A DNA stretch of 64,000 bases from Pelagomonas calceolata (taxonomy: Eukaryota): contig CAKKNE010000002.1 of NCBI GenBank assembly GCA_918797485.1, positions 5,642,001 through 5,706,000 of the forward strand, in the 5' to 3' direction. The translations under genes and the position numbers were made by a program. Shown piece after piece: positions 837-63,178 of the stretch (positions are counted from its first letter, which is position 1; each line of letters opens with the position of its first letter). The notes beneath the pieces were generated by a model. The model made no database searches, was not told the origin of the DNA, and worked only from the letters and a program-made list of their open reading frames with translations.

Positions 837-858
837 CTAGTGTGTTACAGGACGCTAG
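837..858 (-). promoter_or_regulatory. CTAG-bipartite promoter motif
   Basis: Reverse complement CTAGCGTCCTGTAACACACTAG, between divergent genes. Confidence 0.6.
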
Positions 859-1007
859 CTCCCGCCCGGGCGCGGCTCTTGCAAGCACGCACGCGCGGCC
901 AGGTACGCGCGCTACGAAGCATTCGTGCGAAAACGTGCCGTGCTCCCGCTCCCACCCGCTGATTGATGCGTTAACGACTCACAGACTGCACAAAAGACCA
1001 CTGCACA

Positions 1008-2207
1008 ATGCGCCGCCTCGCGCCGCGGCGGCGCTTCTTCGCGGGCCGCTATCAAGCTGCATTAGCGAAGAGGGCCGCGGAAGGCACGCTGCGCAGCACT
1101 ACCGTAAGAACGGAAACTTTAATAGACTTCGCGTCGAACGACTACCTCGGCGTCGCGCGCGATGCCGCCTTCGCCGCGGCCCACTTCGCGGCCGAGGCCA
1201 GGAGAGCGGACGCGGCCGCGGGCTCGACGGGCAGCCGCCTGCTCACGGGCGCATCACGGGAACACGACGCCTTCGAGGCCTTTGCTGCTCAATTTCACGG
1301 GCGAGAGAGCGCGCTGCTCTTCGGGTCGGGCTACGCGGCGAATAGCGCCGTCGCTGCGACGCTGCCCCTGCCTTCTGATGCGGTCCTCTTCGACGAGCGG
1401 AGCCACAACTCGACGCGGTTCGGGTTGGTGCGGAGCCGCGCCTCTGTACAAAGACCCTTCGGCCACAACGATTTGGATGATCTGCGGGTTAAGCTAAGGG
1501 ATCACGAGGGCGCCCTGGTCTTCGTCGAGGGCATTTACTCGATGGACGGCGACGAGGCGCCTCTCCAAGAACTCGCGGAGCTTTGTTTGGAGGATGGTCG
1601 GGCGGGTCTTATCGTAGATGAAGCGCACTCGACGGGCATCTTGGGAGATTGTGGAAGAGGCGCCGTCTCCACGTTGCCTATACCATTGAGGCGGGCCGTC
1701 GTCGCCCAGGTCCACACGTTCGGGAAGGCGTTGGGCGGCCACGGCGCCGTCGTGGTTTGCGACGCGACGACGAGGGAGTACCTGGCGAACTACGCCCAGC
1801 CCTTCGTCTACGCGACGGCGCCGCCCGATTCGCATTCCAGATTGGCGCGGCGGGCGTACGACGCCGTCGCCGCCGCGGACGACGCGCGGCGCCACTTGGC
1901 GCGTCTCATCGACCTCTTCCGGGCCGAGTGCGACGTCGGGTCCTTATTACTACCGTCGCGCACGCCCATCCAGGCGGTCCTGGCGCCGGGCGCCGACGTA
2001 GTGTCGCGTGCTGCGGACCGCGTGCGCCGCGCGGGCTTTGACGTCGGCGCCATCCGTGCCCCCACGGTCCCGGCCGGCGCCGAGCGCCTCCGTCTCGTCC
2101 TGCACGCGTTCAACACGGAGGAAGAGGTATTGGGCGTGGCGCGGGCGGTGCGGGAGGCCGTCGACGCTTCTTCTTCCTCGTCGGAGGAGCGGCTTGTGGT
2201 GGGGTAA
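1008..2207 (+). CDS. bioF: 8-amino-7-oxononanoate synthase (PLP class II aminotransferase fold)
   Basis: Motifs DFASNDYLG, GSTGSRLLTG, EGIYSMDGD, VDEAHSTG, TFGKALG (PLP Lys) and IRAPTVP...RLR. Confidence 0.9.
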   Translation: MRRLAPRRRFFAGRYQAALAKRAAEGTLRSTTVRTETLIDFASNDYLGVARDAAFAAAHFAAEARRADAAAGSTGSRLLTGASREHDAFEAFAAQFHGRESALLFGSGYAANSAVAATLPLPSDAVLFDERSHNSTRFGLVRSRASVQRPFGHNDLDDLRVKLRDHEGALVFVEGIYSMDGDEAPLQELAELCLEDGRAGLIVDEAHSTGILGDCGRGAVSTLPIPLRRAVVAQVHTFGKALGGHGAVVVCDATTREYLANYAQPFVYATAPPDSHSRLARRAYDAVAAADDARRHLARLIDLFRAECDVGSLLLPSRTPIQAVLAPGADVVSRAADRVRRAGFDVGAIRAPTVPAGAERLRLVLHAFNTEEEVLGVARAVREAVDASSSSSEERLVVG

Positions 2208-2232
2208 TGTGTTTTTGATGATTCGTACTTAC

Positions 2233-2628
2233 TCACGCCGAGCACGTAAAGGAGCCCTCCTTCGTGGAGCCCTTCGACGGCTCGAGGATCTCGAAGCTGC
2301 ACTTCGACCATACCTCCCCTAACTTGACGCGTGGATCTTCCTTTGAGGTAGTGTGAGAAAACTTGAGGTCCTCGCCGCGCGTGGGCAGCGTGACGCGGCA
2401 GTCCATGCAGGACTTCTCGTCCGCGCCCAGCTCCACCAGCCGACGCAAGAAGCCCAGCGGGTCCTCCCGGAACCTAAATCTCACGTGGTCGTCGAACACG
2501 CCGCCCTCGCGCGACTCGACGTTGAAAATCGAACCACCTGGCGTCGTGACCTTGAAGTCCGCGTACGTGGCCTTGTTCGAGACCTCGACATAAGTGAGAT
2601 CGACCTCCAGCGAGCCGCCGCAAACATA
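2233..2628 (-). pseudogene. 5'-truncated gene stump, unknown protein
   Basis: Coding-like frame YVCGGSLEVDLTYVEV...FTCSA*, bounded upstream by TGA at 2629-2631, with no ATG near the 5' end. Confidence 0.45.
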
Positions 2629-3021
2629 TCACTGAGCGAAGAATGCGACAAGTTCCTCTACGAAACGAAGGGCAAGGAGAAGAAGATCAAGCTCCTCAAA
2701 CTCACGAGCGTGTCGTCGATCGATCCTAGGAAGCCCAAGGTCCTCAAGTTCGCCACCGAAAGCAAGAGCTACAAGTTCGAGTTCGAGGACGAGAAGGACT
2801 GTGCCGTCTTCGCGGCCGGGCTGCGGGCCCTCGCGCCGGCCGAGGCGACGCGTGGCTCCATCGCTGGGAAGAAAAAGGATTTCTTACGCGTGAAAGTGCC
2901 GACCAAGCCGCTCGGCTTCCTCGCGGCGTCGACGGTCGAGCGCGACCCGGCTCGACCGGAGGCGCACCGCTCCGCCGTCGCCGCCGCCGCGCCGGCGGCG
3001 CCGAAGGACAAGGCCGTCTAG
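2615..3021 (+). pseudogene. 5'-truncated stump, PH-like domain C-terminus
   Basis: ISLSEECDKFLYETKGKEKKIKL...YKFEFEDEKDCAVFAAGLRAL. The ORF contains no ATG and abuts the minus-strand stump. Confidence 0.45.
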
Positions 3022-3065
3022 GCGCACACAATCCCACGACCCCCTACGTGTACACAACTTACAGA

Positions 3066-4409
3066 CTAGAAGGCGTCGAGCGAGTCCTGCTTCCGCTTCT
3101 CCTGCGAGTCCATGAAGGACAGCTCCCAGAAGCCCTCGGGCGTCCCGGGCGGCGGGTGGTAGGCCTTGTGGCGCGAGCACTCGTCCTGGAGCTTCTTGAC
3201 GTCCGCGTCGCTGAGCTGGTCCTTCGTCGCGTCGATGAAGCCCTGGCACTGGTCGCAGAAGTGGCCGGGCATCTTCGCGCGCTCGCACTTCTTGCGCACG
3301 ACGGACTGGTAGGCGAAGCCGCCGGGCTCGCGCATGCTCGGCGCGGGCGCCGGCGCCGGCGCCTCGGCGGGCGTCGGCGGCGGCGCCGCCGGCGCCTCCT
3401 CCTCCTCCTGCGACGGGTCCCAGGACTCGCTGATGGACATGGAGGGCGCCGGCGCCGGGGCCGGGGCCGCCGCGTCGTCCCGGCGCCGGCGCTTCGTTCC
3501 TTCGTCGGAGCGGCGGGCCGCGGGCGCCCGGCCGCGCTGCAGGGCCGCGCGGTCCAGGGCCGGCGCGCCGATGCTGTGCCGCTCCGGCCGGCGCGCCGAG
3601 GCCGGCTTGTCCTCGCGGCGCGACCGGCGCTCGGCCGCGGCGCCGTTCTCGGGCCAGAGCGCCGCGCGCGGCTCGCGGTCGCCGTCGTCGCGGCGCCGCC
3701 GCGAGCGGCTCGACTCGCCGTCGCGGCGCCTGCTGCGGCTCGAATCGTCGCGCCGCCGCCGCGAACTTGTGTCGTCGTCGCGCCGCCGCCGCGAACTCGT
3801 GTCGTCCGCGCGGCGCCGCTTCTTGGTCGTCGCCGCGGCTGGATCAGCAGAAACGACGCGCGGCGTCTTCGGCGGGGGACCGCGCGGCGTCTTCGCGCCC
3901 CGCGCGGCGTTGAGGTGGTCCGCGACGTCCGCCGCGAGCCGCGCCGCGTCGACGCGCGCCGCGGGCTGGTTCGCCAGCGCGGCGTGCAGCGCCGGCGTTA
4001 CCCTTGCGAGGGCTGCTCCGAGCGCGTCGGCCTCGTTTACTTTATCGCGGTACGCGGCCTGGAGCTCGCGCTTCTGGTCCTTGCGCCGCGCGACCTCCGA
4101 GTCCCGCGCCGCGACGTCCGCGCGGAGGCCGTCGTTCTCTCGTCGCAGTTCCGCGTTCTCTCTTTCTAAACGCCGCGCGTCCGAGGGCGACGGCGACCCG
4201 TCGCGCGCGCCGCGGAGCCGCGCGACCTCGCGCTCGAGCCTCGAGGCGCGTTCATTGGCCTCCTCGAGCTCGGCCGCCGTGGGCCGCTCCTCGAGGGCGG
4301 CCTCGGCTCGCTTTCTGCGGCCCTTTTCGCGCTCGAGGCGCTCGTTCCAGCGTCGCTCCTCCGCCTGGAGGTCGGCGCGGGCGCCGTCGAGGATGTCGTC
4401 GACGCCCAT
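3066..4409 (-). CDS. COM1: CtIP/SAE2/COM1-like DNA end-resection factor
   Basis: N-terminal coiled coil. The C-terminal VVRKK.ER..MPG..CDQC...CSRHK...PPGTPEGFW matches the Sae2/CtIP signature. Likely ATG at 4409, because the longer ORF crosses the promoter motif. Confidence 0.8.
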   Translation of the reverse strand: MGVDDILDGARADLQAEERRWNERLEREKGRRKRAEAALEERPTAAELEEANERASRLEREVARLRGARDGSPSPSDARRLERENAELRRENDGLRADVAARDSEVARRKDQKRELQAAYRDKVNEADALGAALARVTPALHAALANQPAARVDAARLAADVADHLNAARGAKTPRGPPPKTPRVVSADPAAATTKKRRRADDTSSRRRRDDDTSSRRRRDDSSRSRRRDGESSRSRRRRDDGDREPRAALWPENGAAAERRSRREDKPASARRPERHSIGAPALDRAALQRGRAPAARRSDEGTKRRRRDDAAAPAPAPAPSMSISESWDPSQEEEEAPAAPPPTPAEAPAPAPAPSMREPGGFAYQSVVRKKCERAKMPGHFCDQCQGFIDATKDQLSDADVKKLQDECSRHKAYHPPPGTPEGFWELSFMDSQEKRKQDSLDAF

Positions 4410-4593
4410 GCTTGGTCTTTTTGGCGTGCGCGGCGGCGCTGCTGATGTGCTGCCTGTTCTCGCCGCGGGACGGCGCTGCGCCCCTGCTCTTTTGCCACGC
4501 GTGCAGAAACGGCTGCGGCGGCGCGTTGCAACGTGTGATTTGGCTAGCGCGCGCGTATACGCGGCAGAGGAGCGTTCGTTGTGAAATGTCCCG

Positions 4594-4613
4594 CTAGTGG
4601 TCTTATACGCTAG
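4594..4613 (-). promoter_or_regulatory. CTAG-bipartite promoter motif
   Basis: Reverse complement CTAGCGTATAAGACCACTAG, between divergent genes. Confidence 0.55.
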
Positions 4614-4878
4614 ATCACGTTTTGCCACGTGATATAAAAACTGCCTCATCCAAGCCCCCTTGCAGTATTTGTTCGATCTGTTACGTTTACGTGCGCTACT
4701 GCTCACTGCAGCACCGCTCCTCAGGCTTTCCTGCCGAAAAGAGCGGTCACAAGCAGCTCTAAGAGCTCAAGGCACCTGTGCTCAAGTCTGCAGGCTCCCG
4801 AGCGACGTGCTAACCGTACGCAGCCGTGGTGCCGCGCACTACGCGGCCGCAGCGGCACAGCTCTTAAAAGTGGACAAA

Positions 4879-5892
4879 ATGCACCGCGTAACGCTCGTGC
4901 TCGTTGTCGCCCAAGCGCTCGACCTCGCGCCTCTATCCAAGCTGCGAGCCGTCTCGCTCGCCCGCCCGCCCGAGAGCCGGCTCATCGCCGGGAAGCTCGA
5001 CGACTCACACGTCGCCATCTGGAAGTGGAAGGAGGCGACGATGGGCGACGGCGCGGGCGCGGCCTGCACCGGTGTGGAACGGGCGCTCGCCGAGCGCGTG
5101 AAAGCGGCCACGGGCGGCGAAGCGATCGTGCTGTCGACGTGCGCGCGCCTCGACGTCTACAGCTACTCTGACGCGGATAAAGACCTCGCGGCCATCGTCG
5201 CAAGTGACATTGGCGGCGCGGCCACGACGTGGCGGGCGGCGCGGCTCTTCGCGCCGAGGTACGCCACACCCGTGGAGCCGACGCTCGCGTCGCGCTGCGG
5301 CGCCGACGCCGCGCGGCACGTTTTCGAGGTCGCGTGCTTCGCGGGCCTGGAACGGTGCGAGTTCGACCCGTTTGATAGTCATCAGGCGCACGTCGTCAAA
5401 CAAATAAAAGCCGCCTTCGACGACGCCGCGCGGGACGGGGGACCCTGCGGTACGCGGCTGTCGGCGCTGCTGCGGCTCGCCCTCGAGACGGGCAAGGCCG
5501 CGCGCGACGGGAAGAGTGTCAGGGCTATCAATACACTTCGGGGGAAGGCCCTCGACGCCGTGGCCCTCGCGACGGCGCGACAGGAAGTGGCGGCCGCCGT
5601 CGAGGAAAGAGTGTTGGAGCCCGCCGTCCTGAAAGCGGCGGAGGCGTACGCGGCGCTGGACGCGGGACCGCGATTGCGGGAACTGAGCGAACTAGCCGAC
5701 GAGGCCGTCGCCGAGGCGATACGATCAGCGCCGAGCGCCGCATCCCGAGAAGCCGACTTGACGCGGGCTGCGCGGAAGGCACTCCACGGCCCACTGATGC
5801 GAGTTCGGGCCGGCGAGGCCGTGCTGGCCGAGGACGCCAGCTCCGACGTCCGCGCGGCCGTCGCGGAAGCGCTGACTGCTGCTGCTGCGTAA
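4879..5892 (+). CDS. Glutamyl-tRNA reductase-like protein lacking the NADPH-binding domain; signal peptide
   Basis: EAIVLSTCARLDVY, AARHVFEVAC, HVVKQIKAAF and the C-terminal KALHGP resemble GluTR. No GxGxxG is present. First ATG at 4879. Confidence 0.6.
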   Translation: MHRVTLVLVVAQALDLAPLSKLRAVSLARPPESRLIAGKLDDSHVAIWKWKEATMGDGAGAACTGVERALAERVKAATGGEAIVLSTCARLDVYSYSDADKDLAAIVASDIGGAATTWRAARLFAPRYATPVEPTLASRCGADAARHVFEVACFAGLERCEFDPFDSHQAHVVKQIKAAFDDAARDGGPCGTRLSALLRLALETGKAARDGKSVRAINTLRGKALDAVALATARQEVAAAVEERVLEPAVLKAAEAYAALDAGPRLRELSELADEAVAEAIRSAPSAASREADLTRAARKALHGPLMRVRAGEAVLAEDASSDVRAAVAEALTAAAA

Positions 5893-5968
5893 TTTTTGTA
5901 ATGTTCGTGAACCACCACCCCCGCGTTACCCGCGGGCCGCGACGAGACGAGTCCGTTTCACAAAATAA

Positions 5969-7117
5969 CTACCAATTACGCCGCAGGGACCCGGCCGCCT
6001 CGGCCGGCGCCGGCTGGAGGCCGTACGTCCTATCTGGAGGCGAGTCCGGCGTCCGCGTCGAGAAGGACGCCACGAGCACGCTTCTACGACCCGCCGTGAT
6101 CAGCATGCCGCCGTGCGTCACGTCGCCGCCGAACACGAGGGCGTCGCCCGCGGACGGCGTCACGACGACGGCGTCGCCGTCGGGGTTCGAGCCGTCGGCG
6201 GAGGCTGATGATGAAGCGGGTCCCCAGAACCCGGTCCCACCACCGGCGAAGGCGCTCGGCGCCGTCAACGGGACCAGCACGGTGAGCGCCATGTGGTCCT
6301 TGTGGGCGCCGAAGAGGCCCGGCGCCTCGTATAAATTCATGGCCGGTTCGCCTTCGGACCACTCCAATTCACCGGCCATATATAAATCGCGCAACGTCGG
6401 ACACCGCTGCGACAACGACTCGTCGGGCCGCGGCCGGTCCATTTGATTTGATCGCGGTCCGGTTGTTGGTTGCCGCGCCACCCAGTCAACACCAGGAGCA
6501 AATAATTGATCATAAATATCCGGCATCTTCGCGTCCAACGCATCTAGGACATTCAAAAACACGGCCTCCGCATTGGAAACCACGTCAAAATCGAAGGCTT
6601 CGCTGTCGGCGACGGCAAACCTCCCTCTCCCATTCGTCGGTGGTCTTCCATGGAAAGCCCGGTATTTTTCAAAGGTCTCCGTGCACTTGCCGTAGAGAAA
6701 GTTGCAATCATCTAAAGTGCACGCGTTCTCCACCCTCAGCACGACCTCGCCCCGTCGGAGTCGCTCGCCGACCGTCGCGCCCTCCGGTTCATCTGTCAAA
6801 GGCACCTCTTCGATGCCGTCCTTCTCGAAGAAGTCGTCGACAGCACGGCAGACGCCGACGAAGCCGTCCACGTCCCTCGAACCGGGGCCCCAGAGCTCCT
6901 CGAGTTCTTCATAGTCAAGGTTGCCGCCCGCGAGCTCCGCGGCGATCTGCTTCGTACTCTTCGCGGCCTCCAAGTCCATCAATCCGTCGGTGGCTTTTGC
7001 CGCGAACTCGGCCTCGAGGACGTGGCGCGGCGCGAGGCGCAGCGCTGTTTCTCGTCGTCGCGCGACGGGTGCGCATTGCAGCGCGGCGGCTGATGCCAGC
7101 AATGCGAGTAGTAGCAT
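5969..7117 (-). CDS. 2OG-Fe(II) oxygenase with signal peptide
   Basis: HKD...GGGTGF...GDALVFGG.VTHGG..ITAGRR.VLV. Confidence 0.75.
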   Translation of the reverse strand: MLLLALLASAAALQCAPVARRRETALRLAPRHVLEAEFAAKATDGLMDLEAAKSTKQIAAELAGGNLDYEELEELWGPGSRDVDGFVGVCRAVDDFFEKDGIEEVPLTDEPEGATVGERLRRGEVVLRVENACTLDDCNFLYGKCTETFEKYRAFHGRPPTNGRGRFAVADSEAFDFDVVSNAEAVFLNVLDALDAKMPDIYDQLFAPGVDWVARQPTTGPRSNQMDRPRPDESLSQRCPTLRDLYMAGELEWSEGEPAMNLYEAPGLFGAHKDHMALTVLVPLTAPSAFAGGGTGFWGPASSSASADGSNPDGDAVVVTPSAGDALVFGGDVTHGGMLITAGRRSVLVASFSTRTPDSPPDRTYGLQPAPAEAAGSLRRNW

Positions 7118-7287
7118 GTTGCGGCGGTGGCGTGCAGAGGCTATGCAGCCTCTGAGACTGGCAGCACAGCAGCGTCCTTTTATACCACTAAAGATTCCTG
7201 CCTCTGCTTTGAGAGTCTTATACCGTTCCCAAAAGTCACGAAACCGTGCAAACTACCCCGTGATGTCCCCGGCCCCGTGCCTGCGCG

Positions 7288-7309
7288 CTAGCGTCCTGTA
7301 AGACACTAG
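7288..7309 (+). promoter_or_regulatory. CTAG-bipartite promoter motif
   Basis: CTAGCGTCCTGTAAGACACTAG, between divergent genes. Confidence 0.65.
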
Positions 7310-7477
7310 CCTACAAGCCAAACCACGGCTGCAGCGCAGTGCTCGCCGAGCTACGGCATCGCAGCGCTGGGCGAGTGCTCGCTACGGCATCGCAGTTCTC
7401 GCATCAACGCCATCGCCGCGCTGGTAAGGCCGGCATTCTTGGTTTGAGCCCTTGCAGGCTGCACAAGGGCTGGCAGC

Positions 7478-8065
7478 ATGGCGCAAAACAAAAAGAAGAG
7501 CAAAGCCAAAGGGAAGGGCAAGCCGCCAGTAAAGAAAGCAGGCAAAGCTGCGAAAAAATCGAGCGCGACCGCGACCGCCGCCGCCGCCGTCGCCGCCGCA
7601 CCGGGAATCGTCGAAGCGGGCGCGCTGGCCGCGCCGGGCGACGTGTTAGGGTCTACTGCGACCCACAAGTGCGGCCCGGGCACCTTCGCGCGGGATGGTA
7701 CAATTGTCGCGTCGCTGGCCGGCACCGTGCAAATCAACGACGACGTTATCGAGACCATTAGGGAAGGCCGCCGCCCCGCCATCGCCGTGGGCGTTGAGGT
7801 GATCGGCGTCGTGACGCGGACGAACCGGACGAACGCGCTGCTGGACCTCGTCGCGGCTGGTGGGGCGGCGCTCGACTTCCCGGCCAGGGCAACATTAAGA
7901 AGGGAGGACGCGCTGCCGCCGGGCCGGGACGCGTCGAACTTGGATCTGACGGCGCAGTTCGCGGGGCGCGACCTCGTTCGGGCGGTCGTGGTGGCCGTCG
8001 ACGACGCCGCGCGGTACCACGTGTCCGTCGCGCCGGAGGGCATGGGGCTCGTGCGGAGTGCGTAA
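7478..8065 (+). CDS. Exosome cap subunit-like protein (CSL4/RRP4 N-domain plus S1-like domain)
   Basis: PGDVLG...GPGTF..DGTIVASLAG followed by VGVEVIGVVT...F..RDLVRAVV. Confidence 0.65.
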   Translation: MAQNKKKSKAKGKGKPPVKKAGKAAKKSSATATAAAAVAAAPGIVEAGALAAPGDVLGSTATHKCGPGTFARDGTIVASLAGTVQINDDVIETIREGRRPAIAVGVEVIGVVTRTNRTNALLDLVAAGGAALDFPARATLRREDALPPGRDASNLDLTAQFAGRDLVRAVVVAVDDAARYHVSVAPEGMGLVRSA

Positions 8066-8121
8066 CCTTAGTGTAGTGTAGTATCCGTTACGGAGGTGTC
8101 GAAAACCGGCGCGGGGCTCGT

Positions 8122-8142
8122 CTAGCGGCCTAAAGACACTAG
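8122..8142 (+). promoter_or_regulatory. CTAG-bipartite promoter motif (orphan)
   Basis: CTAGCGGCCTAAAGACACTAG followed by AAGC repeats. Confidence 0.55.
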
Positions 8143-8169
8143 AAGCAATAGCAAGCAAGCTTCTCTTGT

Positions 8170-8346
8170 CCATACCCGACGGTCGCCGAGGCGATCCAGG
8201 GCTGCGGCATCGGGTACAACCGCACGCAGTGGGCGACGGTCGACACCAGCGGCCGCAAGAAGCTCGAGAAGCTCCTGGGCGCGGCGAAGCCCTACGCTCT
8301 TGGAGTTCTGGGAGGCCTCGCGCTCGCCGCGTTGGCGCGCCGCTGA
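8170..8346 (+). pseudogene. C-terminal remnant of a pyridine nucleotide-disulfide oxidoreductase (mercuric reductase/DLD-like)
   Basis: PYPTVAEAIQGCGIGYNRTQW...LAALARR* resembles the (H)PYPTxAEAI...YNR terminus. In-frame TAG at 8149-8151 and no ATG. Confidence 0.5.
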
Positions 8347-8414
8347 ACTTTCCACACACGCCCTCCTCCCCCGGGGCCTTCGTGAGTATACTAGTACACA
8401 TGCTTAGACAAGAC

Positions 8415-9203: not shown

Positions 9204-9414
9204 TGTGGTGGCAGCAGCTGACCCTGATGTGTTTTATGTGGCACAGCGATGGATTTCGACTGTGTTGCGCTAGCAGAAGCAACAGAAGGCCTGAGCGACC
9301 ACGAATGTGGATTTGTGGCAGATATGCTAACCAGTGAGGCGCGTATGCCGTGCCGAGTTCGATGCGACCAGGTACTCTCTTTGCTGGTTCGGGTTCGGGA
9401 GTCGATCGCGATAC

Positions 9415-30068: not shown

Positions 30069-30090
30069 CTAGTGTGTTACATGCCGCTAG
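30069..30090 (-). promoter_or_regulatory. CTAG-bipartite promoter motif
   Basis: Reverse complement CTAGCGGCATGTAACACACTAG, between divergent genes. Confidence 0.6.
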
Positions 30091-31860: not shown

Positions 31861-31885
31861 ACTGGCCCGCGCAGTCAAGTTCAAG

Positions 31886-36220: not shown

Positions 36221-36242
36221 CTAGCGGCCGATAAGACACTAG
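36221..36242 (+). promoter_or_regulatory. CTAG-bipartite promoter motif
   Basis: CTAGCGGCCGATAAGACACTAG, about 110 bp upstream of the fibrillin ATG. Confidence 0.6.
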
Positions 36243-53785: not shown

Positions 53786-53893
53786 CGCCGCTGTGTTTTT
53801 GGCTTGGGCTGTACGTTTCACAGACAGCCGGCCGAGCGGCAGACGTACTTTTGTGAAGGCCTGCGCGCACGCGCTGGTGTGGAGAACTCACAA

Positions 53894-55180: not shown

Positions 55181-55215
55181 ATGTGTGTTCTGTATTAGTC
55201 AGGGGGTTGGGGGTT

Positions 55216-55538
55216 CTACTCCTTCTTCTCGCAGCACTTCGGGTCGAAGCACCCGTTCACGGCTCTTGTGTAGCTGCCGGATCTCGGTCGCTCGTCGCCG
55301 CCGTGGGCGGGGTGGTACAGCTCGCTCCCGATCTTCATCGCGAACGGCAGGAGGGGCACCCACTCGCCCCGCACGACGTCCCAGTTGTTGATAGTCGACC
55401 GCGTTTTATTCTCGTCGCGCACTTCTGCCGCGGCGGGACGAGGTACATCACGATCCGGACGATGCCGCCCAACGCTCGAAAGAGCAGGGCGAGGATGATA
55501 AAGTATATAAACCAGGTGACAATTTTGCTCCACACCAT
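55216..55538 (-). pseudogene. Small membrane-anchored gene, apparently frameshifted or internally deleted
   Basis: ATG at 55538 gives MVWSKIVTWFIYFIILALLF.... The coding-like tail NNWDVVRGEWVPLLPF...CCEKKE* is in another frame. Confidence 0.35.
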
Positions 55539-55716
55539 GATCACGAGGCTGCCTTTTTCTCGACGTCTCCGTCGGCAACGCGCACGTCGGCCGCGGCGTC
55601 GGGCCGCGCAAGGCCCTGGCCAAGGAGAACGCGGCGGCGCTCGCGCTCCGAGCCCTCGCGCGCGGCTCGCACTAGGTCGGCCCGCCCCACTGTTATACAC
55701 ATCTCTCCTTTATAAC

Positions 55717-55738
55717 CTAGCGGCTTGTAAGACACTAG
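55717..55738 (+). promoter_or_regulatory. CTAG-bipartite promoter motif
   Basis: CTAGCGGCTTGTAAGACACTAG followed by CAAGCAAGC. Confidence 0.65.
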
Positions 55739-55897
55739 CAAGCAAGCAGGCTGCGCCGCGAGCTTAAAAATAGCACCAAGGGAAATACAGAATACTGCTC
55801 TCTGATTCACGTATCAAAACGTGCACACGCGCCGCAACCACTGCGATACCTCGCGCCGCAGCACTGCATCCGCAACCACTGCGACAGACAGCACACA

Positions 55898-57364
55898 ATG
55901 CGCGTCCTCGCCTGCATCCTGCTCGGCGCCGCGCGAGCCGACGAGATGACCGGCGCCATCTATGTCTCCAGGCACGGCGTCCGCTCGCCCTACCCGCCGG
56001 GCGGCACGGGCTGGCCGGCGCACGGCCAGAGCTGGGAGGCCTGGACGAGCGCGCCCGTGAAGCGCGCCGCGGAGTTCGGCATGACGGACCACGCGTTCAA
56101 GACGCAGGAGCTCACGGCGCACGGCAAGACCTTGGTGAAGCCCCTCGGCGCGTCCGCGCGCGAGGCCTGGGCCGCCGCCGGGCTCGAGCTCGATTGTGAG
56201 AGAGTCAAAACCTACGCGGACGACTCGACGCGGGACGTGCAGACGGCTAAACTCTGGCTCGAGGGCCTCGGCTGCGCTGAGAATCACGTGGACGTGGCCA
56301 ACGGCAGTTTACCAGAGATGGTCCCGATACTGAGTGATGACTTCGTGCAGCCGAACGGTATCTGTAAGGTGGCGACGGAGGGCCAGGCCCGGGGTAGATT
56401 TGGAGGCGACGTGGATGCGCTGACGGCGGCGCACGCGGTTGGTATTGACGAGGTCCAGGCGGCGCTGGAGATGCCGTCGGACGCGGACGCTTGTATAGAT
56501 CTGCCCGACGACGTCGAGTGCGCTATAGCATCATTTCCTTACCAATACGACGCGATGCCGTGGCACGGCCTGTTTGGGGGGCCCCTCTACTACGCGCAGT
56601 ACTTCGCCGAGAGCTGGATGTTCGAGTACCTTTCAGGTTTAGACGACTTCGCCAATCATAAGCTCACGCCGGAGGAATTGGTGCGGTTATATGGGTTGCA
56701 CGTGGCGATCATGGGCTTCGCGTCGAACTATTTCAACAGCCGCGCTTTGGGGAGCGCGCTGCTCGCCTACGTCGCCGTGTCCGCCCGGGAAATAGTGAGG
56801 GGCCACCCCGAAAACGTGAGGGCGCTCTTTGCCCACGACACGAACATTTTGTACCTGCGGCACTTGTTGGATCTGGACTGGATCGCCACGGGCTGGCCCA
56901 TGCACGCCGCTCCCACGGGCGGCGCTTTGGTGTTTGAGGTGCGCGGCCAGGCCGTGCGCACGGTCTTCCGGGCCCAGTCGCCGCAGTCCCAGCACTCGGG
57001 CGAGGGCACCGTGGACGAGGCCGTGTTGGTTATTCCGGCGTGCGGCGTGGAGCTGTGCCCCGTCGAGGATTTTGTCAGGGTCGTCGCCGAAGCTGTGGAC
57101 GCGGACTGCCTACCCGCGGAGCTGCGCGACGCGCTCATCCGCGGCGTCTCGGTCCGCGAGGACGTGTGCACGGGCATGCGCCCGTGGCTCATGGTCCTCG
57201 GGGCATTCTTATCTGCCGCGGGCGGGGCGTTCATCGCGATAGCCGCGGAGCGGCGCAAGCGGGCGCCGTCCGCGGCGTCGCTCCTCCAAGCGAGTCGGCG
57301 CGCCGACCAGCAGGAGGGCCTCGCGCTCGTCGAGAGCAATCCCCTATCACCAGACGGGGTGTAA
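55898..57364 (+). CDS. Histidine acid phosphatase (AppA/Agp phytase-like) with signal peptide and C-terminal TM
   Basis: RHGVRSP, LT.HG, AD...R...TA, AHDTNI and PTGGALVFE. Confidence 0.85.
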   Translation: MRVLACILLGAARADEMTGAIYVSRHGVRSPYPPGGTGWPAHGQSWEAWTSAPVKRAAEFGMTDHAFKTQELTAHGKTLVKPLGASAREAWAAAGLELDCERVKTYADDSTRDVQTAKLWLEGLGCAENHVDVANGSLPEMVPILSDDFVQPNGICKVATEGQARGRFGGDVDALTAAHAVGIDEVQAALEMPSDADACIDLPDDVECAIASFPYQYDAMPWHGLFGGPLYYAQYFAESWMFEYLSGLDDFANHKLTPEELVRLYGLHVAIMGFASNYFNSRALGSALLAYVAVSAREIVRGHPENVRALFAHDTNILYLRHLLDLDWIATGWPMHAAPTGGALVFEVRGQAVRTVFRAQSPQSQHSGEGTVDEAVLVIPACGVELCPVEDFVRVVAEAVDADCLPAELRDALIRGVSVREDVCTGMRPWLMVLGAFLSAAGGAFIAIAAERRKRAPSAASLLQASRRADQQEGLALVESNPLSPDGV

Positions 57365-57382
57365 ACATGTGTGTGAAACTTC

Positions 57383-57404
57383 CTAGTGCCTTACATTACG
57401 CTAG
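57383..57404 (-). promoter_or_regulatory. CTAG-bipartite promoter motif
   Basis: Reverse complement CTAGCGTAATGTAAGGCACTAG, 140 bp upstream of the ATG at 57544. Confidence 0.6.
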
Positions 57405-57543
57405 CTAACTCTGCCTCTGGGAGCCAGTCGAGCGAGGGAACGCGCTACGGGCCGTAAATAGACGAAAGCTGTTCATTGTGCAGCGCTTCTGATCGATCCG
57501 GACCCAGCCCTACATCGCTGCTTAACGTGTCGGCGCACAGACC

Positions 57544-59892
57544 ATGGACATGCCTCCGCCGCCGCCGCGGGCGCCCCCAGCAGCCAAACCACAACAACCC
57601 GAGGACGACCTCTCCTGGGCGGTCACGCCGCCGCCGCCCTTCCACTCCTTGGAACACTTCAAGGACGGATCATTAGCCGGCACGACGACCCTCGACAAAA
57701 AAGTAATCACCGTAGGCCGCGACGCGGACGCGGACCTGACGATCCTCCACCCGACAGCTAGTAGAAGGCACGCATCTCTGGTAAATGGAGCGGACCGCCA
57801 GCTCTTCCTGGTTGCAAAAGACACGCGCTACGGGACGACGCTCAACGGCCAGACGTGTGCACCCGGTGCAAAGCTCAGACTTGAAAACGGCGCCCAGATC
57901 CGCTTCGCGCTGTCGTCGAGAACGTACGTCGTGCGCCTCGCGACGGCCCGGGATCCCTCACAAACGCCGCTCGCCGAGGCCGCGCTACCGACTTCCTTCG
58001 GCCGCCGCGAGAAGGTCGCACAGCCGAAGCCGGACAACCACCAAAAACGAAAAGCCGACGGCGACGCCGACGCCGCGCGCCAGGCCCTCGCGGAGCGGCG
58101 CGCGAAGCGCAAGGCCGAGATCGACGCGATGACGCGGGACATGGTCTCGTCGACACCATCGTATAATGCGCCCGTCGTCGCCGAAGAGGAACCGGTAGAG
58201 GAGGAGGAACCGGAAGAGGAGGCGACCGACGCCGACGCCGTCGCCGCGCTGACGAAGCGCTGGCAGCTGCCGGTGTCTCACGAGGCGCGGTTGCAGCCCG
58301 CCTCCAAGGCCGTCTCGGCCATCGCGAGCGACCCGGCGGGCGGCCGCGTCATCGTGGGTTCTCTAGACTACAAGGTGCGGTTATATGATTTTGGTGGCAT
58401 GGACCGGAGGCATCGGCCGTTCCGGGAAATAGAGCCGGACGAAGGGCATCCCATCGTGGCATTGTCGTACTCGCCGACGGGCGATCGGTTTCTGTGCTGC
58501 ACCGGGTCGGCGCAACCGAAGATCTTCCAGAGGGACGGCCAGCACCTACTGACGTTCAATAGGGGAGACCCGTACGTGACGGACATGGCGCGGACGACGG
58601 GCCACGTGACGATCGTGACGGGCGGCCAGTGGCACCCGCACGAGAAGATGCAGTGCTTGACTTCTGGGATGGATGGGTCTTTGAGAATATGGGATCTCTG
58701 TGGAAAGACCGGTCTGAGAGATTTCCTGTTATGTGACCATACGATACGAGTGAGAGACAAAGGAGCGAGAAAAGTAGCCGCCACGGCGTGTTGCTATTCG
58801 CCCGACGGCCGAAAAGTCGCGTGCGGCGCCGCCGACGGCTCGGTGCAGATTTGGCAGCTGAAGGGCCGAGCCCACAATTACCTGCGGCCGGACGCGTGTG
58901 CGAGAACAGCACACAGACCGTCGACGGACGCTTCGGGAGCGGTCGTTTCTTGTGTCCAGTTCTCGCCCGACGGTCGTTCAATAGCGTCGAGGGCGGACGA
59001 CGGCTTCATCAGAGTCTGGGACGTGCGCAAATTGTCCAAGTCGCAACCGGTCTGCGAGTTCGCTGGGATAGAGCCGCGCGGGCTGACGGCGAACCTGGCC
59101 TGGCGGCCCGACGGCGCCGTGCTGTGTGCCGGCGCCGCAGGTGCTTCTAAGAACGACCCCGGGCGCCTCAGTTTCTTCTCGGTCGGCGGTGATGCCCACG
59201 AGGTGCATAGAGATGCGGGCGGCTACCGTCCTTTGGTCTCGTTAGGAGGGTGCGCGAAAGGCGCTGACGTTTGTGTATTATGGCACGAGCGCATAAGACA
59301 CGTCTTCGTGGGCGGTTCTGATGGATCTGTGAGAGCATTATATGATCCAGCATTGTCGAAGAACGGCGCCTTACTCAGTGTAAAGCGCGACCACGCGCCG
59401 CGCAAGTTCTTGACGAGCGACACGTCGCACGTCGACGCTTCGTCAATAGTGAATCCCAATGCTTTGCCGATGTACCGCAACGACGACGCGTTTCGATCTA
59501 GAGGCCGCTACGCGAAGACGCGCAACTCGCAGACGCTGTCCAAGAAGCCGGACCCGCCGCTGGCGCAGGGCCAGCAGGGCCGCAACGAGGGCGCGCGCAC
59601 GACGTTCTGCCAGACGTTCCTCGAGAACGAGCTCGCGCAGGGGCCCGGCAACATCCGCAACGAGGACCCGCGCGAGGCGCTGCTCAAGTACGCGAACGAG
59701 GAACCCATATTTAGGACGAATGCGACGTTCTACCGGGATAGTGGAGGCGCGCGGCGCGACCTCGCGCAAGACACGCTCGAGGCGGCCGAATCCAAATTCG
59801 TCGAGGACCAGAAGCAGCTCATGGACCGGAACCCATCTCGTGTGATTCGGGACGCACGGAAGAAGCCTGATGGGAAGCAGGGGGGGAGCTAG
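57544..59892 (+). CDS. WDR70: FHA domain plus WDR70 (GAD-1-like) WD40 protein
   Basis: FHA (VGRD...HPTASRRHA...GT.LNG); LPVSHE, DY.V.LYDFGGMD, GDPYV.DM..T.GH, ALPMYR and EDPREALLKYA. Confidence 0.85.
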   Translation: MDMPPPPPRAPPAAKPQQPEDDLSWAVTPPPPFHSLEHFKDGSLAGTTTLDKKVITVGRDADADLTILHPTASRRHASLVNGADRQLFLVAKDTRYGTTLNGQTCAPGAKLRLENGAQIRFALSSRTYVVRLATARDPSQTPLAEAALPTSFGRREKVAQPKPDNHQKRKADGDADAARQALAERRAKRKAEIDAMTRDMVSSTPSYNAPVVAEEEPVEEEEPEEEATDADAVAALTKRWQLPVSHEARLQPASKAVSAIASDPAGGRVIVGSLDYKVRLYDFGGMDRRHRPFREIEPDEGHPIVALSYSPTGDRFLCCTGSAQPKIFQRDGQHLLTFNRGDPYVTDMARTTGHVTIVTGGQWHPHEKMQCLTSGMDGSLRIWDLCGKTGLRDFLLCDHTIRVRDKGARKVAATACCYSPDGRKVACGAADGSVQIWQLKGRAHNYLRPDACARTAHRPSTDASGAVVSCVQFSPDGRSIASRADDGFIRVWDVRKLSKSQPVCEFAGIEPRGLTANLAWRPDGAVLCAGAAGASKNDPGRLSFFSVGGDAHEVHRDAGGYRPLVSLGGCAKGADVCVLWHERIRHVFVGGSDGSVRALYDPALSKNGALLSVKRDHAPRKFLTSDTSHVDASSIVNPNALPMYRNDDAFRSRGRYAKTRNSQTLSKKPDPPLAQGQQGRNEGARTTFCQTFLENELAQGPGNIRNEDPREALLKYANEEPIFRTNATFYRDSGGARRDLAQDTLEAAESKFVEDQKQLMDRNPSRVIRDARKKPDGKQGGS

Positions 59893-60012
59893 GACTTTCC
59901 TTGTCAATGTCTACTCACACCGGGGCGCGCCCGGCTCTCCGCGTTTAGGAACCCCCGCGCGATAGCTGCGGACACCAAACAATGCTTACAAACTTGAACC
60001 GTGACACGCGCG

Positions 60013-60816
60013 CTATTCACTTCTCTCCTCCTTGACCTCCTCCGCGTCCGCGTCGGGGGCGGCGGGGCCGTCCGCGTCGTAGCGCCGCGAGTACCGCGTG
60101 AACCGGGGGATCCAGGCGAAGATGGGCGACGGCGGCACGTTGCCCGGTGATTTCACGGGCGACGCCCTCCGCTGCAGGAACTCCTGGAAGCGGCCCGCGA
60201 AGCCGCGGCGCGGCGCGGACGCGGGCGGTGTCGCCGCGGGCGGCGTCGCCGCGGCGTCGGCCGCCGCGGCCTCGACCGACGCCGAAAGCACCGGCGCGGC
60301 CGCGGCAGGGTTCGGCGGCGCCTTGCGCACGGGTCGGGGGCGCGTCCGCCGCGCCTTCGGCCGCGCCAGCGGCGCCGGCACCGACGTCGACGTGACGTCG
60401 GCCGTGAACTCGGGCAGAGCATCGCCGCGGGCCGGCTCGGTCCAGCTCGCGGCCGTCCCGCTGCGCCGCGCCGCGGCCCGCCGCAGGAGCGACCGCGGCG
60501 TGTCGACGACGACGCTCCAGACGTTGCGCAGCGCGTCCGCGAGCGGCGACACGGGCGACCGCCGCACTTCGGGTGCGGGCGGCGGCAGCACCGGCTTCTG
60601 AATCGGCGGTGGGCGCACCGGCTTCCCGAGCGGTGCGCGGACGGGCGGCAGGGCGCGCGGCGCGCTCGGCGCGCTTGGCGCGTCGGGCGGCAGCGGCAGC
60701 GCGTCGGCCGGCGGGCGCGGCCGTGTGATCACCGGTTTAAGGTTGGGCTCAGCTTGTTTGTGGTCCGCGAGGTCGTCGCCCGCGTCGATCTTGAGACGCA
60801 CTTTGCGGCTCGCCAT
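60013..60816 (-). CDS. Proline-rich hypothetical protein
   Basis: ATG, coding-like bias, and a position divergent from the hemolysin III gene. Confidence 0.5.
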   Translation of the reverse strand: MASRKVRLKIDAGDDLADHKQAEPNLKPVITRPRPPADALPLPPDAPSAPSAPRALPPVRAPLGKPVRPPPIQKPVLPPPAPEVRRSPVSPLADALRNVWSVVVDTPRSLLRRAAARRSGTAASWTEPARGDALPEFTADVTSTSVPAPLARPKARRTRPRPVRKAPPNPAAAAPVLSASVEAAAADAAATPPAATPPASAPRRGFAGRFQEFLQRRASPVKSPGNVPPSPIFAWIPRFTRYSRRYDADGPAAPDADAEEVKEERSE

Positions 60817-61006
60817 GGTGTCAACGGCCGGGCAGCCCAGCCGCGCTGCCCCACGACCGTCGCGTGAGTGCGTTTTGGTACAGCGCTTTTACAAAACTTT
60901 GGGAGTCTCCAACTGAACTGTGAGTGCAAAAAAAGTCCCTCTTGGCCGGAGGACTCCCATTTGCACTTGGAAACATCTCCTTTGGTGTCCTCGATGAGTC
61001 TGGCTA

Positions 61007-61026
61007 CTAGCGTTTAAGCCCTCTAG
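61007..61026 (+). promoter_or_regulatory. CTAG-bipartite promoter motif (degenerate)
   Basis: CTAGCGTTTAAGCCCTCTAG, between divergent genes. Confidence 0.35.
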
Positions 61027-61145
61027 CTCTCCGAGGCGCGTTCGTCGTCACACGCGCGCTGCCATTCAAGCGGTGATACGCCTCGTAGTTAGCGTATTTA
61101 TACGCATTGCTGCGCATTTCACCGCAGGATTGCAGTCTGCGCTAA

Positions 61146-61274
61146 TACAGCAGAGTAGCTCACATTAGATTAGCTGGCCAGATCAAAGCCGCACAAGGCG
61201 CTTCGCTCAGCGGTACAGCAGAGTAGCTCACATTAGCTGCCAGGATCAAAGCCTGCCGCACAAGGGCGCCTCGC
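61146..61274. repeat. About 68-bp imperfect tandem duplication in the 5' leader
   Basis: TACAGCAGAGTAGCTCACATTAG...GCACAAGG at 61146 and 61214. Confidence 0.8.
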
Positions 61275-61275
61275 A

Positions 61276-62022
61276 ATGAAAAAGAGCGACGAAACGGCTT
61301 CAGCCAGCTACTGGCGCGAACAGATCCCCTGGTACCCGAGCACCGTCTTCGGCCCGTACCGCCTCCGCGGCTACTCGCGGCGCGAGCTGGTTGCTGATGG
61401 AGTTGTGCACGCGGCAGGCTGCGTGCTCGGATTAGCAGCTGCGGCACTCCTCATCCCCCGCGCCATCGCCGTGGCGACGCCCGCGCCGCTCGCGGCCGGC
61501 CTCGGTCTCTACGCGCTCTCGCTCGTTTGTATGCTGTTCTGCAGCGCGACGTTCAACATGATGGTCGCGACCTGGAAGAAGTCGACCTGGGAGCTCCAGC
61601 TGGCCGACCACCTCGGCATCCTCCTTCTCATAGCTGGCACGTACACGCCGTTCATGCTGCACGCTTGCAGCCCGCGCGTCCTCGCCTTCGTCTGGCTCGT
61701 CGGCCTCGTCTCCTTCGCCGCGAAGGCGTCCAAGTCGCCTCTCGACGTCGTCCAGCTCCACGTGCCGTGTTTTCTGGCGATGGGCTGGGCCTGCACGATG
61801 ACGTGGACGGCGGTGTCACAGACGATAACGCCCTGGGCGATTCGGCGCCTGGTCGTCGGCGGCTGCCTCTACACGGGAGGCCTCGTGCCCTGGGCCTGCA
61901 ACGGCCTCGAGTTCCACAACGCCATCTGGCACGTCTGCGTGCTGGCGGCGTCGGCCGTCTTCTACTCAGTCGTCTACCACGAGCTCGCGCTGCCGCCGGC
62001 GGCGTGTGCCGGGCTCCTGTGA
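61276..62022 (+). CDS. Hemolysin III/PAQR family membrane protein
   Basis: E..ADGVVH, DH.GI.LLIAGTYTPF, Y/L.MGW, GG.LYT.G and FHNAIWHV.VL. Confidence 0.85.
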   Translation: MKKSDETASASYWREQIPWYPSTVFGPYRLRGYSRRELVADGVVHAAGCVLGLAAAALLIPRAIAVATPAPLAAGLGLYALSLVCMLFCSATFNMMVATWKKSTWELQLADHLGILLLIAGTYTPFMLHACSPRVLAFVWLVGLVSFAAKASKSPLDVVQLHVPCFLAMGWACTMTWTAVSQTITPWAIRRLVVGGCLYTGGLVPWACNGLEFHNAIWHVCVLAASAVFYSVVYHELALPPAACAGLL

Positions 62023-62095
62023 ACATACGTCGCGTCGTCGTCGTCCGTCTCCTCCGTCCTGTGAACATTGAAGCTGTGTAAATATAACAAGACAA

Positions 62096-63028
62096 TTACG
62101 TAACAACCGCACGAGTGTTCGCCGGCGCGACGGGCAGCGCGCTCGCCTCGGCGACGGCGGCGGCCCAGAGCCGGTCGACCTGGCCGTCGGGGGCGTCGGC
62201 AAGCATCGCGGCGTAAGCCGCGCGGCCTGGTGCCAGCAGCGCCTCGACGCCGCAATCCAGGAGGCCGATGGCGTCGAGCGCGTCCGATAAGTCAGGGGCG
62301 ACGGCGTCGGCGAGGCCCCGAACGCCCTTCGCCCGGTCGCGTGGAGCAGGTGCGGGCGGCGGCTTGGGTGCGGCGGCTTCGAAGAGCACATCGGTCCGCA
62401 AGACCAACTTGGTGCCGGCGACGACAGGAGCACCGCTATGCCATAGGTCGTGCTCGAAGAGCACGACGCGGCCGCGGGCCGGCGCGACGGCGGCGAAGCG
62501 TTTCGCTTCCGTAGTGTCCTCGTAGAGCGTCGCGCCGCCCTCGAAGTTATCCGCATCGTTGAGATAGAGCAACACAGTAACAAGGGACCGGTGACGACCA
62601 CAGTCTGTTGGCACTTCGCGGTCAAAATGACTTTCGAAGCGGTCGCCGGGCCGGTAGCGGAGCAGCCTCAAACGCTCGTTGAGGCCAAAGGGTTCGCCTA
62701 GGCCGCGCGCCGCCGCCCACGCGGCCACCGCCGCGCCGCCGCCGCCGGCGAGCAGCGATTGCCACAGCCGCTCCGCGAAACCGGGATCGCGCCAGGCGGC
62801 CAGTTGGTAGCGGCGCGGGTTCTGTAGTGCCACGGCCGCGCCCGTCTTCGACGCCTCGTTGTCCGCGGCTTGCGTAATGTATTTCAGAGCGGGCGCGCCG
62901 CGCGCCACGAGCGCAGCGCAGTCGGCGGCGTCGACGACGCTATCTACATAGACGCACAAGCATTCATTCGTTGGCCGGCCGTCGCGATGAATGCGTGCTG
63001 GCAGGCTGACACTGTGGGCGGACTGCAT
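62096..63028 (-). CDS. 2OG-Fe(II) oxygenase (prolyl-4-hydroxylase-like)
   Basis: GLNERLRLLRY.PG..F..HFD, TVLLYLN...EGGAT and LFEH..WHSG..V..G.K.VLRTD. Confidence 0.85.
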   Translation of the reverse strand: MQSAHSVSLPARIHRDGRPTNECLCVYVDSVVDAADCAALVARGAPALKYITQAADNEASKTGAAVALQNPRRYQLAAWRDPGFAERLWQSLLAGGGGAAVAAWAAARGLGEPFGLNERLRLLRYRPGDRFESHFDREVPTDCGRHRSLVTVLLYLNDADNFEGGATLYEDTTEAKRFAAVAPARGRVVLFEHDLWHSGAPVVAGTKLVLRTDVLFEAAAPKPPPAPAPRDRAKGVRGLADAVAPDLSDALDAIGLLDCGVEALLAPGRAAYAAMLADAPDGQVDRLWAAAVAEASALPVAPANTRAVVT

Positions 63029-63158
63029 ACTCTGCGATTACGCAAGCAGTGATCTCAGGACTGCGTTCGCGTGATCGCATGCAGAAATGCTACCGCTGCG
63101 ACCTGTTGGCCGCCCTCCAACAGCAAGGTAGGGTGCATACGCAACTCGGCGTCGCTTG

Positions 63159-63178
63159 CTAGTGTGTCTTACCGCTAG
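63159..63178 (-). promoter_or_regulatory. CTAG-bipartite promoter motif
   Basis: Reverse complement CTAGCGGTAAGACACACTAG, 130 bp upstream of the ATG at 63028. Confidence 0.6.

What the first reader, a model, noticed from the sequence alone, without database searches (positions are those of the whole stretch)
837..63178. A ~21-bp CTAGCG-Nx-TAAGACACTAG element marks most promoters
Seen at 837, 4594, 7288, 8122, 10680, 27351, 30069, 36221, 42620, 45358, 53765, 55717, 57383, 63159 and, degenerate, at 61007. It occurs once per intergenic region, in either orientation, roughly 85-300 bp from ATGs, and mostly between divergent pairs. The two CTAGs are 16-18 bp apart and are often followed by CAAGC repeats. 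I saw none inside accepted CDSs. The only copy between convergent genes (8122) precedes a gene remnant. Inference: this is a lineage-specific bidirectional core-promoter or nucleosome-positioning element, or an origin mark. I do not recognise it as described.
Basis: partly seen in the sequence, partly recalled or inferred. Interest (0 to 1): 0.7.

Follow-up and report, generated by a model that had tools for sequence, protein, structure and literature searches.

The report
Algal palindromic two-way promoter element
In a tiny open-ocean alga (likely Pelagomonas), a 24-letter near-palindrome sits outside coding sequence near many gene starts, with assembled RNAs reaching to within a few dozen letters of it; it is likely the binding site of an unknown general transcription factor that would start genes in both directions, and I could not find it described.

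Summary
The element is real. The window is a pelagophyte alga, probably Pelagomonas calceolata (inferred).

A model trained on outside copies finds 13 strong copies in the window (0.15 expected) and none in 53.7 kb of CDS. Twelve have a gene start within about 275 bp. A metagenome scan gave 126 exact copies in Pelagomonas-like contigs, none in predicted CDS.

The full consensus is an imperfect 24-bp palindrome, G-CTAGCG-KCCTG-TAAGACACTAG-C, with a flexible centre, flanked by short A-tracts. It sits at the same place in diverged orthologous promoters.

RNA laid on 53-64 kb ends 0-32 nt from the element for four mRNAs. One tandem copy also has a strong antisense RNA starting on its other side.

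'Most promoters' and 'mostly divergent' are overstated: strong copies occur in 15 of 34 divergent, 5 of 23 tandem and 1 of 53 convergent gaps. I found no target-site duplication, flank homology or hairpin covariation.

Best reading: the site of a lineage-specific, probably dimeric general factor that opens promoters and starts transcription both ways, like ZNF143, M1BP or Abf1. The factor is unknown.

Side find: a circularly permuted, three-intron tRNA-Lys gene at 48535-48687.

The parts
837..858 (-). strong copy (TAACAC variant), divergent gap ORF223/BioF-like
   Evidence: 41.6 bits
4594..4613 (-). strong copy with short spacer, divergent gap CtIP/GlutR-like
   Evidence: 16.9 bits
7288..7309 (+). 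exact copy, divergent gap ORF382/exosome subunit
   Evidence: 35.1 bits
8122..8142 (+). strong copy in a convergent gap, ahead of an ATG-less coding-like fragment at 8176-8346
   Evidence: 16.6 bits; fragment score
10680..10700 (+). exact copy, divergent gap DUF3472/galactosyltransferase
   Evidence: 37.8 bits
27351..27371 (.). weak copy (CTAG pair 17 apart, no CTAGCG arm), divergent gap UBR/ORF424
   Evidence: 7.7 bits, chance level
30069..30090 (-). strong copy, divergent gap sulfotransferase/SHNi-TPR
   Evidence: 36.7 bits
   Evidence: 6.6 bits; alignment
36221..36242 (+). exact copy, tandem gap
   Evidence: 37.0 bits
42620..42641 (-). strong copy with left arm CTTGCG, divergent gap DUF285/ORF211
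   Evidence: 26.8 bits
45358..45378 (-). exact copy followed by (CAAG)3, divergent gap cyclophilin/CDC20
   Evidence: 38.7 bits
53765..53785 (-). exact copy in a 46-74 nt gap between two divergent RNAs (ORF295 / phosphate transporter)
   Evidence: RNA contig ends 53756/53742 and 53803/53817, raw-read end pile at 53815
55717..55738 (+). exact copy upstream of the histidine phosphatase gene; the antisense RNA ends near it
57383..57404 (-). strong copy in a tandem gap; FHA-WD40 mRNA to the right, antisense RNA over the phosphatase gene to the left
   Evidence: 35.1 bits; contig starts 57404/57419 and stranded depth
61007..61026 (+). weak copy, divergent gap; RNA contig starts 84-93 nt away
   Evidence: 7.5 bits
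63159..63178 (-). strong copy in a tandem gap upstream of the 2OG-Fe(II) oxygenase gene
   Evidence: 24.0 bits; contig ends 63127/63132

Best explanation
The element is a roughly 24-bp imperfect palindrome found outside coding sequence near gene starts, and is likely the binding site of a lineage-specific, probably dimeric general transcription factor that would hold the promoter open and start RNA polymerase II within a few tens of bases on either side. Shown: the sequence, its symmetry and flexible centre, exclusion from CDS, enrichment in gaps holding 5' ends, neighbouring A-tracts, persistence at orthologous promoters, and RNA on both sides of two copies. Inferred: that a protein binds it, that the protein is a dimer (from the two half-sites GCTAGYGKCYTR), that the site is nucleosome-depleted (from the A-tracts and analogy with yeast GRFs), and that the RNA contig ends approximate start sites. 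In tandem gaps the second direction would give antisense RNA, as seen over the phosphatase gene.
For: 13 strong window copies vs 0.15 in shuffles; 0 in 53.7 kb of window CDS and 0 non-seed copies in 162.6 kb of locus CDS; 0 of 126 seeds in predicted CDS. Pooled gaps: 15 of 34 divergent, 5 of 23 tandem, 1 of 53 convergent (p=8e-7; per base p=0.0095). Distance to a facing ATG has a similar median on both sides (213 and 180 bp, n=36 and 42), while distances to 3' ends scatter from 40 to 2851 bp. No significant orientation bias in tandem gaps (17 of 27, p=0.25). Spacer positions left free in the search mirror the opposite half: C 62 of 86, T 65 of 86. A-tract 6-mers within 30 nt: 34 observed vs 6.2 expected. 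No TATA peak within 120 nt. RNA contig ends of four mRNAs lie 9/23, 18/32, 0/15 and 32/27 nt from the element edge, p about 0.003 if ends fell evenly between element and ATG. Antisense depth reaches 316x vs 50x sense left of 57383 and is zero in the bin to its right. In three homologous pairs identity is 86-95% over the element vs 35-65% in the 80-column flanks. Restricted distribution: 11 single hits in 11 different prokaryote genomes, 1 and 0 viral hits.
Against: No binding, chromatin or true TSS data. RNA covers only 5 of 16 copies, from 2 raw runs of one sample (about 6% of each read) and 2 contig sets, and the tool warns that contigs cannot show a start. The weak copy at 61007 is 84-93 nt from its RNA end. 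At 63159 there is almost no RNA in the second direction (0.19x and 0). The antisense 5' end is placed only between 57266 and about 57400. Half or more of the promoters lack a clear copy. Conservation in the homologous pairs is partly built in, since both members were found by the exact pattern; the one unselected pair (window/L107) shows a decayed copy. CG phasing from the element is weak (p=0.02, one of 8 tests). Gene calls in the loci come from my own Markov model (24 of 26 window test genes recovered).
Confidence: 0.65

Rival explanations
1. Site of an ordinary regulon-specific transcription factor that switches a large gene set in response to nutrients, light or the cell cycle, not a general promoter factor.
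For: Only about 27-50% of gene starts have a clear copy. Three copies flank a phosphate transporter and a phosphatase.
Against: Neighbouring genes are functionally mixed: biotin synthesis-type aminotransferase, CtIP, exosome subunit, cyclophilin, CDC20, histone chaperone. The extrapolated 3,000-6,500 copies is GRF scale. RNA ends hug the element.
Confidence: 0.13
2. Replication-origin or insulator/boundary mark that sits in promoters because they are the open DNA of a compact genome.
For: Orientation-independent, intergenic, about one per 5-11 kb. Yeast GRFs also act in replication (PMC1802568, abstract start in listing), and M1BP acts at domain borders (PMC8263732, title and passages).
Against: Near absence from convergent gaps even per base and RNA ends within 32 nt tie it to initiation. 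Not directly testable here.
Confidence: 0.1
3. Relic of a tiny mobile element (MITE, introner or Helitron end) spread through open chromatin.
For: Long, palindromic, thousands of copies. The genome carries introner-like repeats (shared intron sequence at 35280-35478).
Against: No target-site duplication: best of 378 offset/length tests gave 3 of 145 copies. Flanks are unrelated (mean pairwise identity 0.256). The element stays at the same place in orthologous promoters whose flanks have diverged.
Confidence: 0.07
4. It works as a DNA cruciform or RNA hairpin, not as a duplex binding site.
For: Arms are conserved while the centre varies. The three fixed asymmetries would be G-T pairs on one strand.
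Against: No covariation at the four flanking pairs (p=0.30-0.62). By my reading, arm variants are uncompensated. Mean DNA folding energy is only -1.8 and -3.0 kcal/mol. At 53765 and 57383 it falls outside the listed RNA contigs, apart from one base.
Confidence: 0.04

Closest known systems
Human Staf/ZNF143 binding site (SBS) in bidirectional promoters (PMC3082894, abstract and outline read)
   Same: [quoted passage not shown]
   Different: No sequence relation tested or expected. Here the site is a near-palindrome with a variable centre, the factor is unknown and function is untested.
Drosophila Motif 1 / M1BP (PMC8263732, passages read)
   Same: A non-TATA core-promoter element at thousands of start sites of mostly constitutive genes, bound by a sequence-specific factor. 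Its consensus ends in CACACTG, superficially like the right half here.
   Different: Motif 1 is short and asymmetric. The likeness is a few letters and probably chance. No homologous factor was sought.
Yeast general regulatory factor sites: Abf1, Reb1, Rap1, Cbf1 (PMC2897762, passages read)
   Same: Abundant, lineage-specific promoter sites that work alongside poly(dA:dT) to make nucleosome-free regions; the repertoire turns over between clades.
   Different: Nucleosome depletion is not shown here. RNA ends appear closer (0-32 nt) than I recall for yeast GRFs, and yeast GRFs often restrict divergent transcription (listing).
Oomycete promoter motifs (PMC3597505, listing and abstract start only) and SNAPc-bound USE (PMC8287931, passages)
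   Same: Promoter elements described in stramenopiles.
   Different: The USEs seen in the passages are 7-9 bp and belong to snRNA genes, and a conserved USE was reported only for Blastocystis and Proteromonas among the stramenopiles analysed. The oomycete motif lists were not compared letter by letter.

Membership tests
GRF / bidirectional core-promoter factor site (Abf1/Reb1, ZNF143, M1BP type) | Abundant, confined to promoter DNA, absent from CDS and 3' gaps | tested here: met
GRF / bidirectional core-promoter factor site (Abf1/Reb1, ZNF143, M1BP type) | Fixed short distance to transcription starts, on both sides | tested here: inconclusive
   RNA contig ends 0-32 nt away for 4 mRNAs; RNA on both sides at 53765 and 57383, not at 63159; not TSS data
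GRF / bidirectional core-promoter factor site (Abf1/Reb1, ZNF143, M1BP type) | Conserved at orthologous promoters | tested here: met
   partly ascertained, and one copy is decayed
GRF / bidirectional core-promoter factor site (Abf1/Reb1, ZNF143, M1BP type) | Nucleosome depletion and phased arrays | tested here: inconclusive
   A-tracts enriched; CG period 180-190 bp z=2.9, p=0.02 uncorrected for 8 tests
GRF / bidirectional core-promoter factor site (Abf1/Reb1, ZNF143, M1BP type) | Bound by a sequence-specific protein and needed for expression | not testable with these tools
   no genome or proteome held; needs bench work
MITE / DNA transposon relic | Target-site duplication | tested here: not met
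MITE / DNA transposon relic | Shared body beyond the terminal repeats | tested here: not met
   flank identity 0.256
Structured RNA or DNA hairpin | Compensatory base-pair changes and a stable fold | tested here: not met
   no Rfam match in the window
SNAPc USE/PSE of type 3 promoters | Located upstream of snRNA genes | not tested
   no snRNA gene found in the window or in 20 loci scanned
Replication origin | Coincides with initiation sites or ORC binding | not testable with these tools
   no replication data

The most novel reading that the evidence does not exclude
The palindrome is itself a symmetric, TATA-less core promoter: one dimeric factor of an undescribed kind places two opposite start sites only about 30-75 bp apart, too close for two separate pre-initiation complexes. 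It would serve a third to a half of all genes in one of the ocean's most abundant eukaryotes and generate regulatory antisense RNA wherever genes lie in tandem.
Probability: 0.22. Interest if true: 0.82.

Novelty: new member of a known kind. Interest (0 to 1): 0.58.

Why it matters
I found no described promoter element for any pelagophyte in the papers I could search. A single long element at thousands of promoters would give a ready marker for annotating start sites and antisense RNAs in a globally abundant alga. It would also give a bait to purify a stramenopile general regulatory factor and a roughly 50-bp two-way promoter for genetic tools. Finally, it offers a test of how compact eukaryotic genomes build bidirectional promoters outside animals and yeasts.

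Tried and rejected
No whole genome was available, so genome-wide numbers are extrapolated from the window and 257 kb of metagenome loci. RNA evidence for 4000-11200, including the convergent copy at 8122, is missing (one search gave no result).

Rows dropped before counts: L001 (viral, GC 0.44, match within what reads as coding sequence); L013 (duplicate of L012); L029, L067 and L100 (bacterial, match inside an alphaproteobacterial tmRNA hit). L118, L045 and L099, the second members of homologous pairs, were left out of the profiles but kept in the 126 seeds. The first motif model had a spacing error and only 4 training cores; one search replaced it.

Tests that gave little or nothing: initiator (TCA/YCAY) or TATA peaks near the element, none clear; CG periodicity in long CDS, not clear; phasing from the ATG, not significant; lone half-sites in divergent gaps without a strong copy, 12 of 17 vs 6.8 expected, with no excess in tandem (4 of 18) or convergent (5 of 38) gaps, which is suggestive and partly reflects decayed full copies. 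A minus-strand ORF as the explanation of the RNA over the phosphatase gene was rejected (coding score -3.5 vs +121).

Earlier scan notes held nothing on this motif or genome and no permuted tRNA in a pelagophyte. The 2014 paper on Dnmt5 linker methylation (recalled) could not be read.
Full report
ORGANISM. The window is gene-dense and about 64% GC, with mostly single-exon genes; 30 of 47 candidate ORFs have Pfam hits. The nearest named relatives of one window protein are pelagophytes at 61% identity. Two window proteins lie on a 6.14-Mb NCBI contig and have 80 or more close relatives in metagenome-derived collections. I infer Pelagomonas calceolata (32 Mb, six chromosomes, 16,667 genes; passages of PMC9481584, and 10.1101/2024.10.30.620910). 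No whole genome was held.

OBSERVATION. Six exact matches occur against 0 in 100 shuffles, and CTAG pairs cluster at 16-18 bp. After dropping one duplicate and three bacterial chance hits, 117 loci of GC 0.51-0.74 held 126 exact copies. I built a block model from these loci only (15 non-seed cores plus the seed flanks) and scanned the window: 13 copies score >=14 bits vs 0.15 per shuffle, and 11 score >=20 vs 0. 27351 and 61007, and an extra site at 33806, are at chance level.

ANATOMY. The consensus is (A/T)G CTAGCG KCCTG TAAGACACTAG CAA. The spacer is 5 nt in 73, 4 in 32, 6 in 8 and 3 in 7 of 120 copies, within the 3-6 range searched. Read with one flanking base on each side, the 22-nt form is a 24-bp imperfect palindrome of half-sites GCTAGYGKCYTR. 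In 86 copies, 8 of 12 mirrored positions match in most copies, one is mixed, and three are near-fixed transitions. Two of the matches are at spacer positions the search left free. Flanking pairs do not covary and the fold is weak, which points to a duplex site for two subunits, not a hairpin (inference). There is no target-site duplication and flanks are unrelated. A-tracts are enriched within 30 nt; no TATA or initiator peak was seen.

POSITION. Window genes were curated by hand. Locus genes were called by a Markov model that recovered 24 of 26 window test genes when trained on loci alone. No strong copy lies in 53.7 kb of window CDS, no non-seed copy in 162.6 kb of locus CDS, and 0 of 126 seeds in predicted CDS. 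The element's stop codons close some but not all frames, so this is only partly built in. Strong copies per gap are, in the window, 9 of 16 divergent, 3 of 7 tandem and 1 of 17 convergent; in unselected locus gaps, 6 of 18, 2 of 16 and 0 of 36. Pooled, divergent vs convergent gives p=8e-7, or 0.0095 per base. Among seeds with both neighbours called, 24 are tandem, 14 divergent and 2 convergent of 40; 44 of 51 seeds with context on both sides have an ATG facing away within 400 bp. Median distances to the ATG are 213 and 180 bp on the two sides. Clear copies therefore serve about 27% (14 of 52, loci) to 50% (21 of 42, window) of gene starts, or about 3,000-6,500 copies if extrapolated. Decayed copies and half-sites would raise this.

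CONSERVATION AND RANGE. In homologous pairs L019/L045, L018/L118 and L056/L099 (orthology of the last is uncertain) the element is 86-95% identical against 35-65% in the flanks, but both members were found by the pattern. In the one unselected pair, L107 has an exact copy in the gap where the window has a decayed one. A 19-letter form gives 11 single hits in 11 prokaryote genomes; viral contigs give 1 and 0. Other pelagophyte genera could not be tested.

RNA. laid two stranded poly(A) runs of one sample and two contig sets on 53000-64000, covering 5 of the 16 copies. First mates lie opposite to the known genes, which fixes strand. At 53765-53785 the RNA contigs end 9 and 23 nt to the left and start 18 and 32 nt to the right (raw pile at 30). 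At 57383-57404 the downstream mRNA starts 0 and 15 nt to the right. To its left a minus-strand RNA covers the phosphatase gene at up to 316x against 50x sense, with no such reads in the bin to the right; its 5' end is placed only between 57266 and about 57400. At 63159 the mRNA end is 32 and 27 nt away, with almost nothing in the other direction. At 55717 one contig starts 21 nt away (sense start or antisense end). At the weak copy 61007 the distance is 84-93 nt. Four of four mRNAs with an unambiguous end beside a strong copy fall within 32 nt, p about 0.003 under an even spread to the ATG. Contig ends are not start-site maps, so this is suggestive. RNA for the 8122 region was not obtained.

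CHROMATIN. CG frequency aligned on the element shows a 180-190 bp period (z=2.9, p=0.02 by random shifts, one of 8 tests; none significant when aligned on the ATG). This is inconclusive.

MECHANISM. Most likely (0.65), a sequence-specific, probably dimeric general factor binds the palindrome, opens the promoter together with the A-tracts, and lets polymerase II start close by in either direction. That yields two mRNAs in divergent gaps and an mRNA plus antisense RNA in some tandem gaps. Binding, dimerisation and nucleosome loss are inferred. Rivals: regulon-specific factor (0.13), origin or insulator mark (0.10), transposon relic (0.07), hairpin (0.04).

COMPARISON. It appears to work like the ZNF143 site (PMC3082894, abstract), Drosophila Motif 1/M1BP (PMC8263732, passages) and yeast GRF sites (PMC2897762, passages). 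It is not shown to be a member of any of them: occurrence and conservation tests are met, start-site coupling and nucleosome effects are inconclusive, and binding is untestable here.

NOVELTY. Searches listed no paper on pelagophyte promoter motifs. The two genome papers contain no occurrence of 'motif' or 'promoter' in their main text; their supplements were not read and could bear on this. The literal strings occur in 216 papers; the 25 listed are unrelated by title (not opened). Most subscription papers are not searchable. I rate it a new member of a known kind, interest 0.58. The permuted tRNA-Lys gene at 48535-48687 is independent of the finding and may deserve equal attention.

Noticed in passing
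window 48535-48687 (+): Circularly permuted tRNA-Lys(CUU) gene. [quoted passage not shown] Leader and trailer pair in the predicted fold and a T-run follows. Reordered in silico it gives a complete 73-nt cloverleaf; ARAGORN and Rfam miss it in the raw DNA. Passages of reviews (PMC3978253, PMC13578239, PlantRNA 2.0) name red and green algae, nucleomorphs and an archaeon, no stramenopile; searches listed none. Possibly the first in this lineage and worth its own follow-up. Expression was not tested.
   Followed up: partly
window 55700-57400: A poly(A)-library antisense RNA, several times more abundant than the sense mRNA, covers the histidine phosphatase gene from near the 57383 copy to near the 55717 copy. 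A phosphate transporter lies one gene away. It resembles antisense repression of phosphate genes in yeasts (recalled).
   Followed up: partly
window 27127-27198: The half-site CTAGCG is repeated three times at a 17-bp period, plus a fourth copy, in the 5' region of the UBR gene.
   Followed up: no
window about 34550-34640, 35280-35478, 32060-32127: Introner-like introns. The first two are similar to stretches in L049, L050, L030, L011 and L058; the third shares end motifs by eye.
   Followed up: no
window 12146-14872 and 16344-19064: Two anoctamin paralogues in the same orientation, neither with a strong copy of the element upstream.
   Followed up: no
window 51506-51890; 43517-43720; 42584-42614: Short tandem duplications in 3' or intergenic DNA, seen by eye: about three copies of the MFS gene's 3' end, two copies of a roughly 125-bp unit, and an 18-bp unit beside the 42620 copy.
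   Followed up: no
window 39274-42459, 31341-31874: A DUF285 (Pfam 'Mycoplasma protein') repeat gene and a TPR remnant, both with many relatives among the few metagenome loci: expanded families.
   Followed up: no
L025, L063, L069, L112, L117, L119: A GGATGC/GCATCC-like 6-mer directly follows the CACTAG arm in either orientation in about 6 of 145 copies, possibly a partner site.
   Followed up: no
L029, L067, L100: Chance exact matches in bacterial contigs, inside an alphaproteobacterial tmRNA hit.
   Followed up: yes
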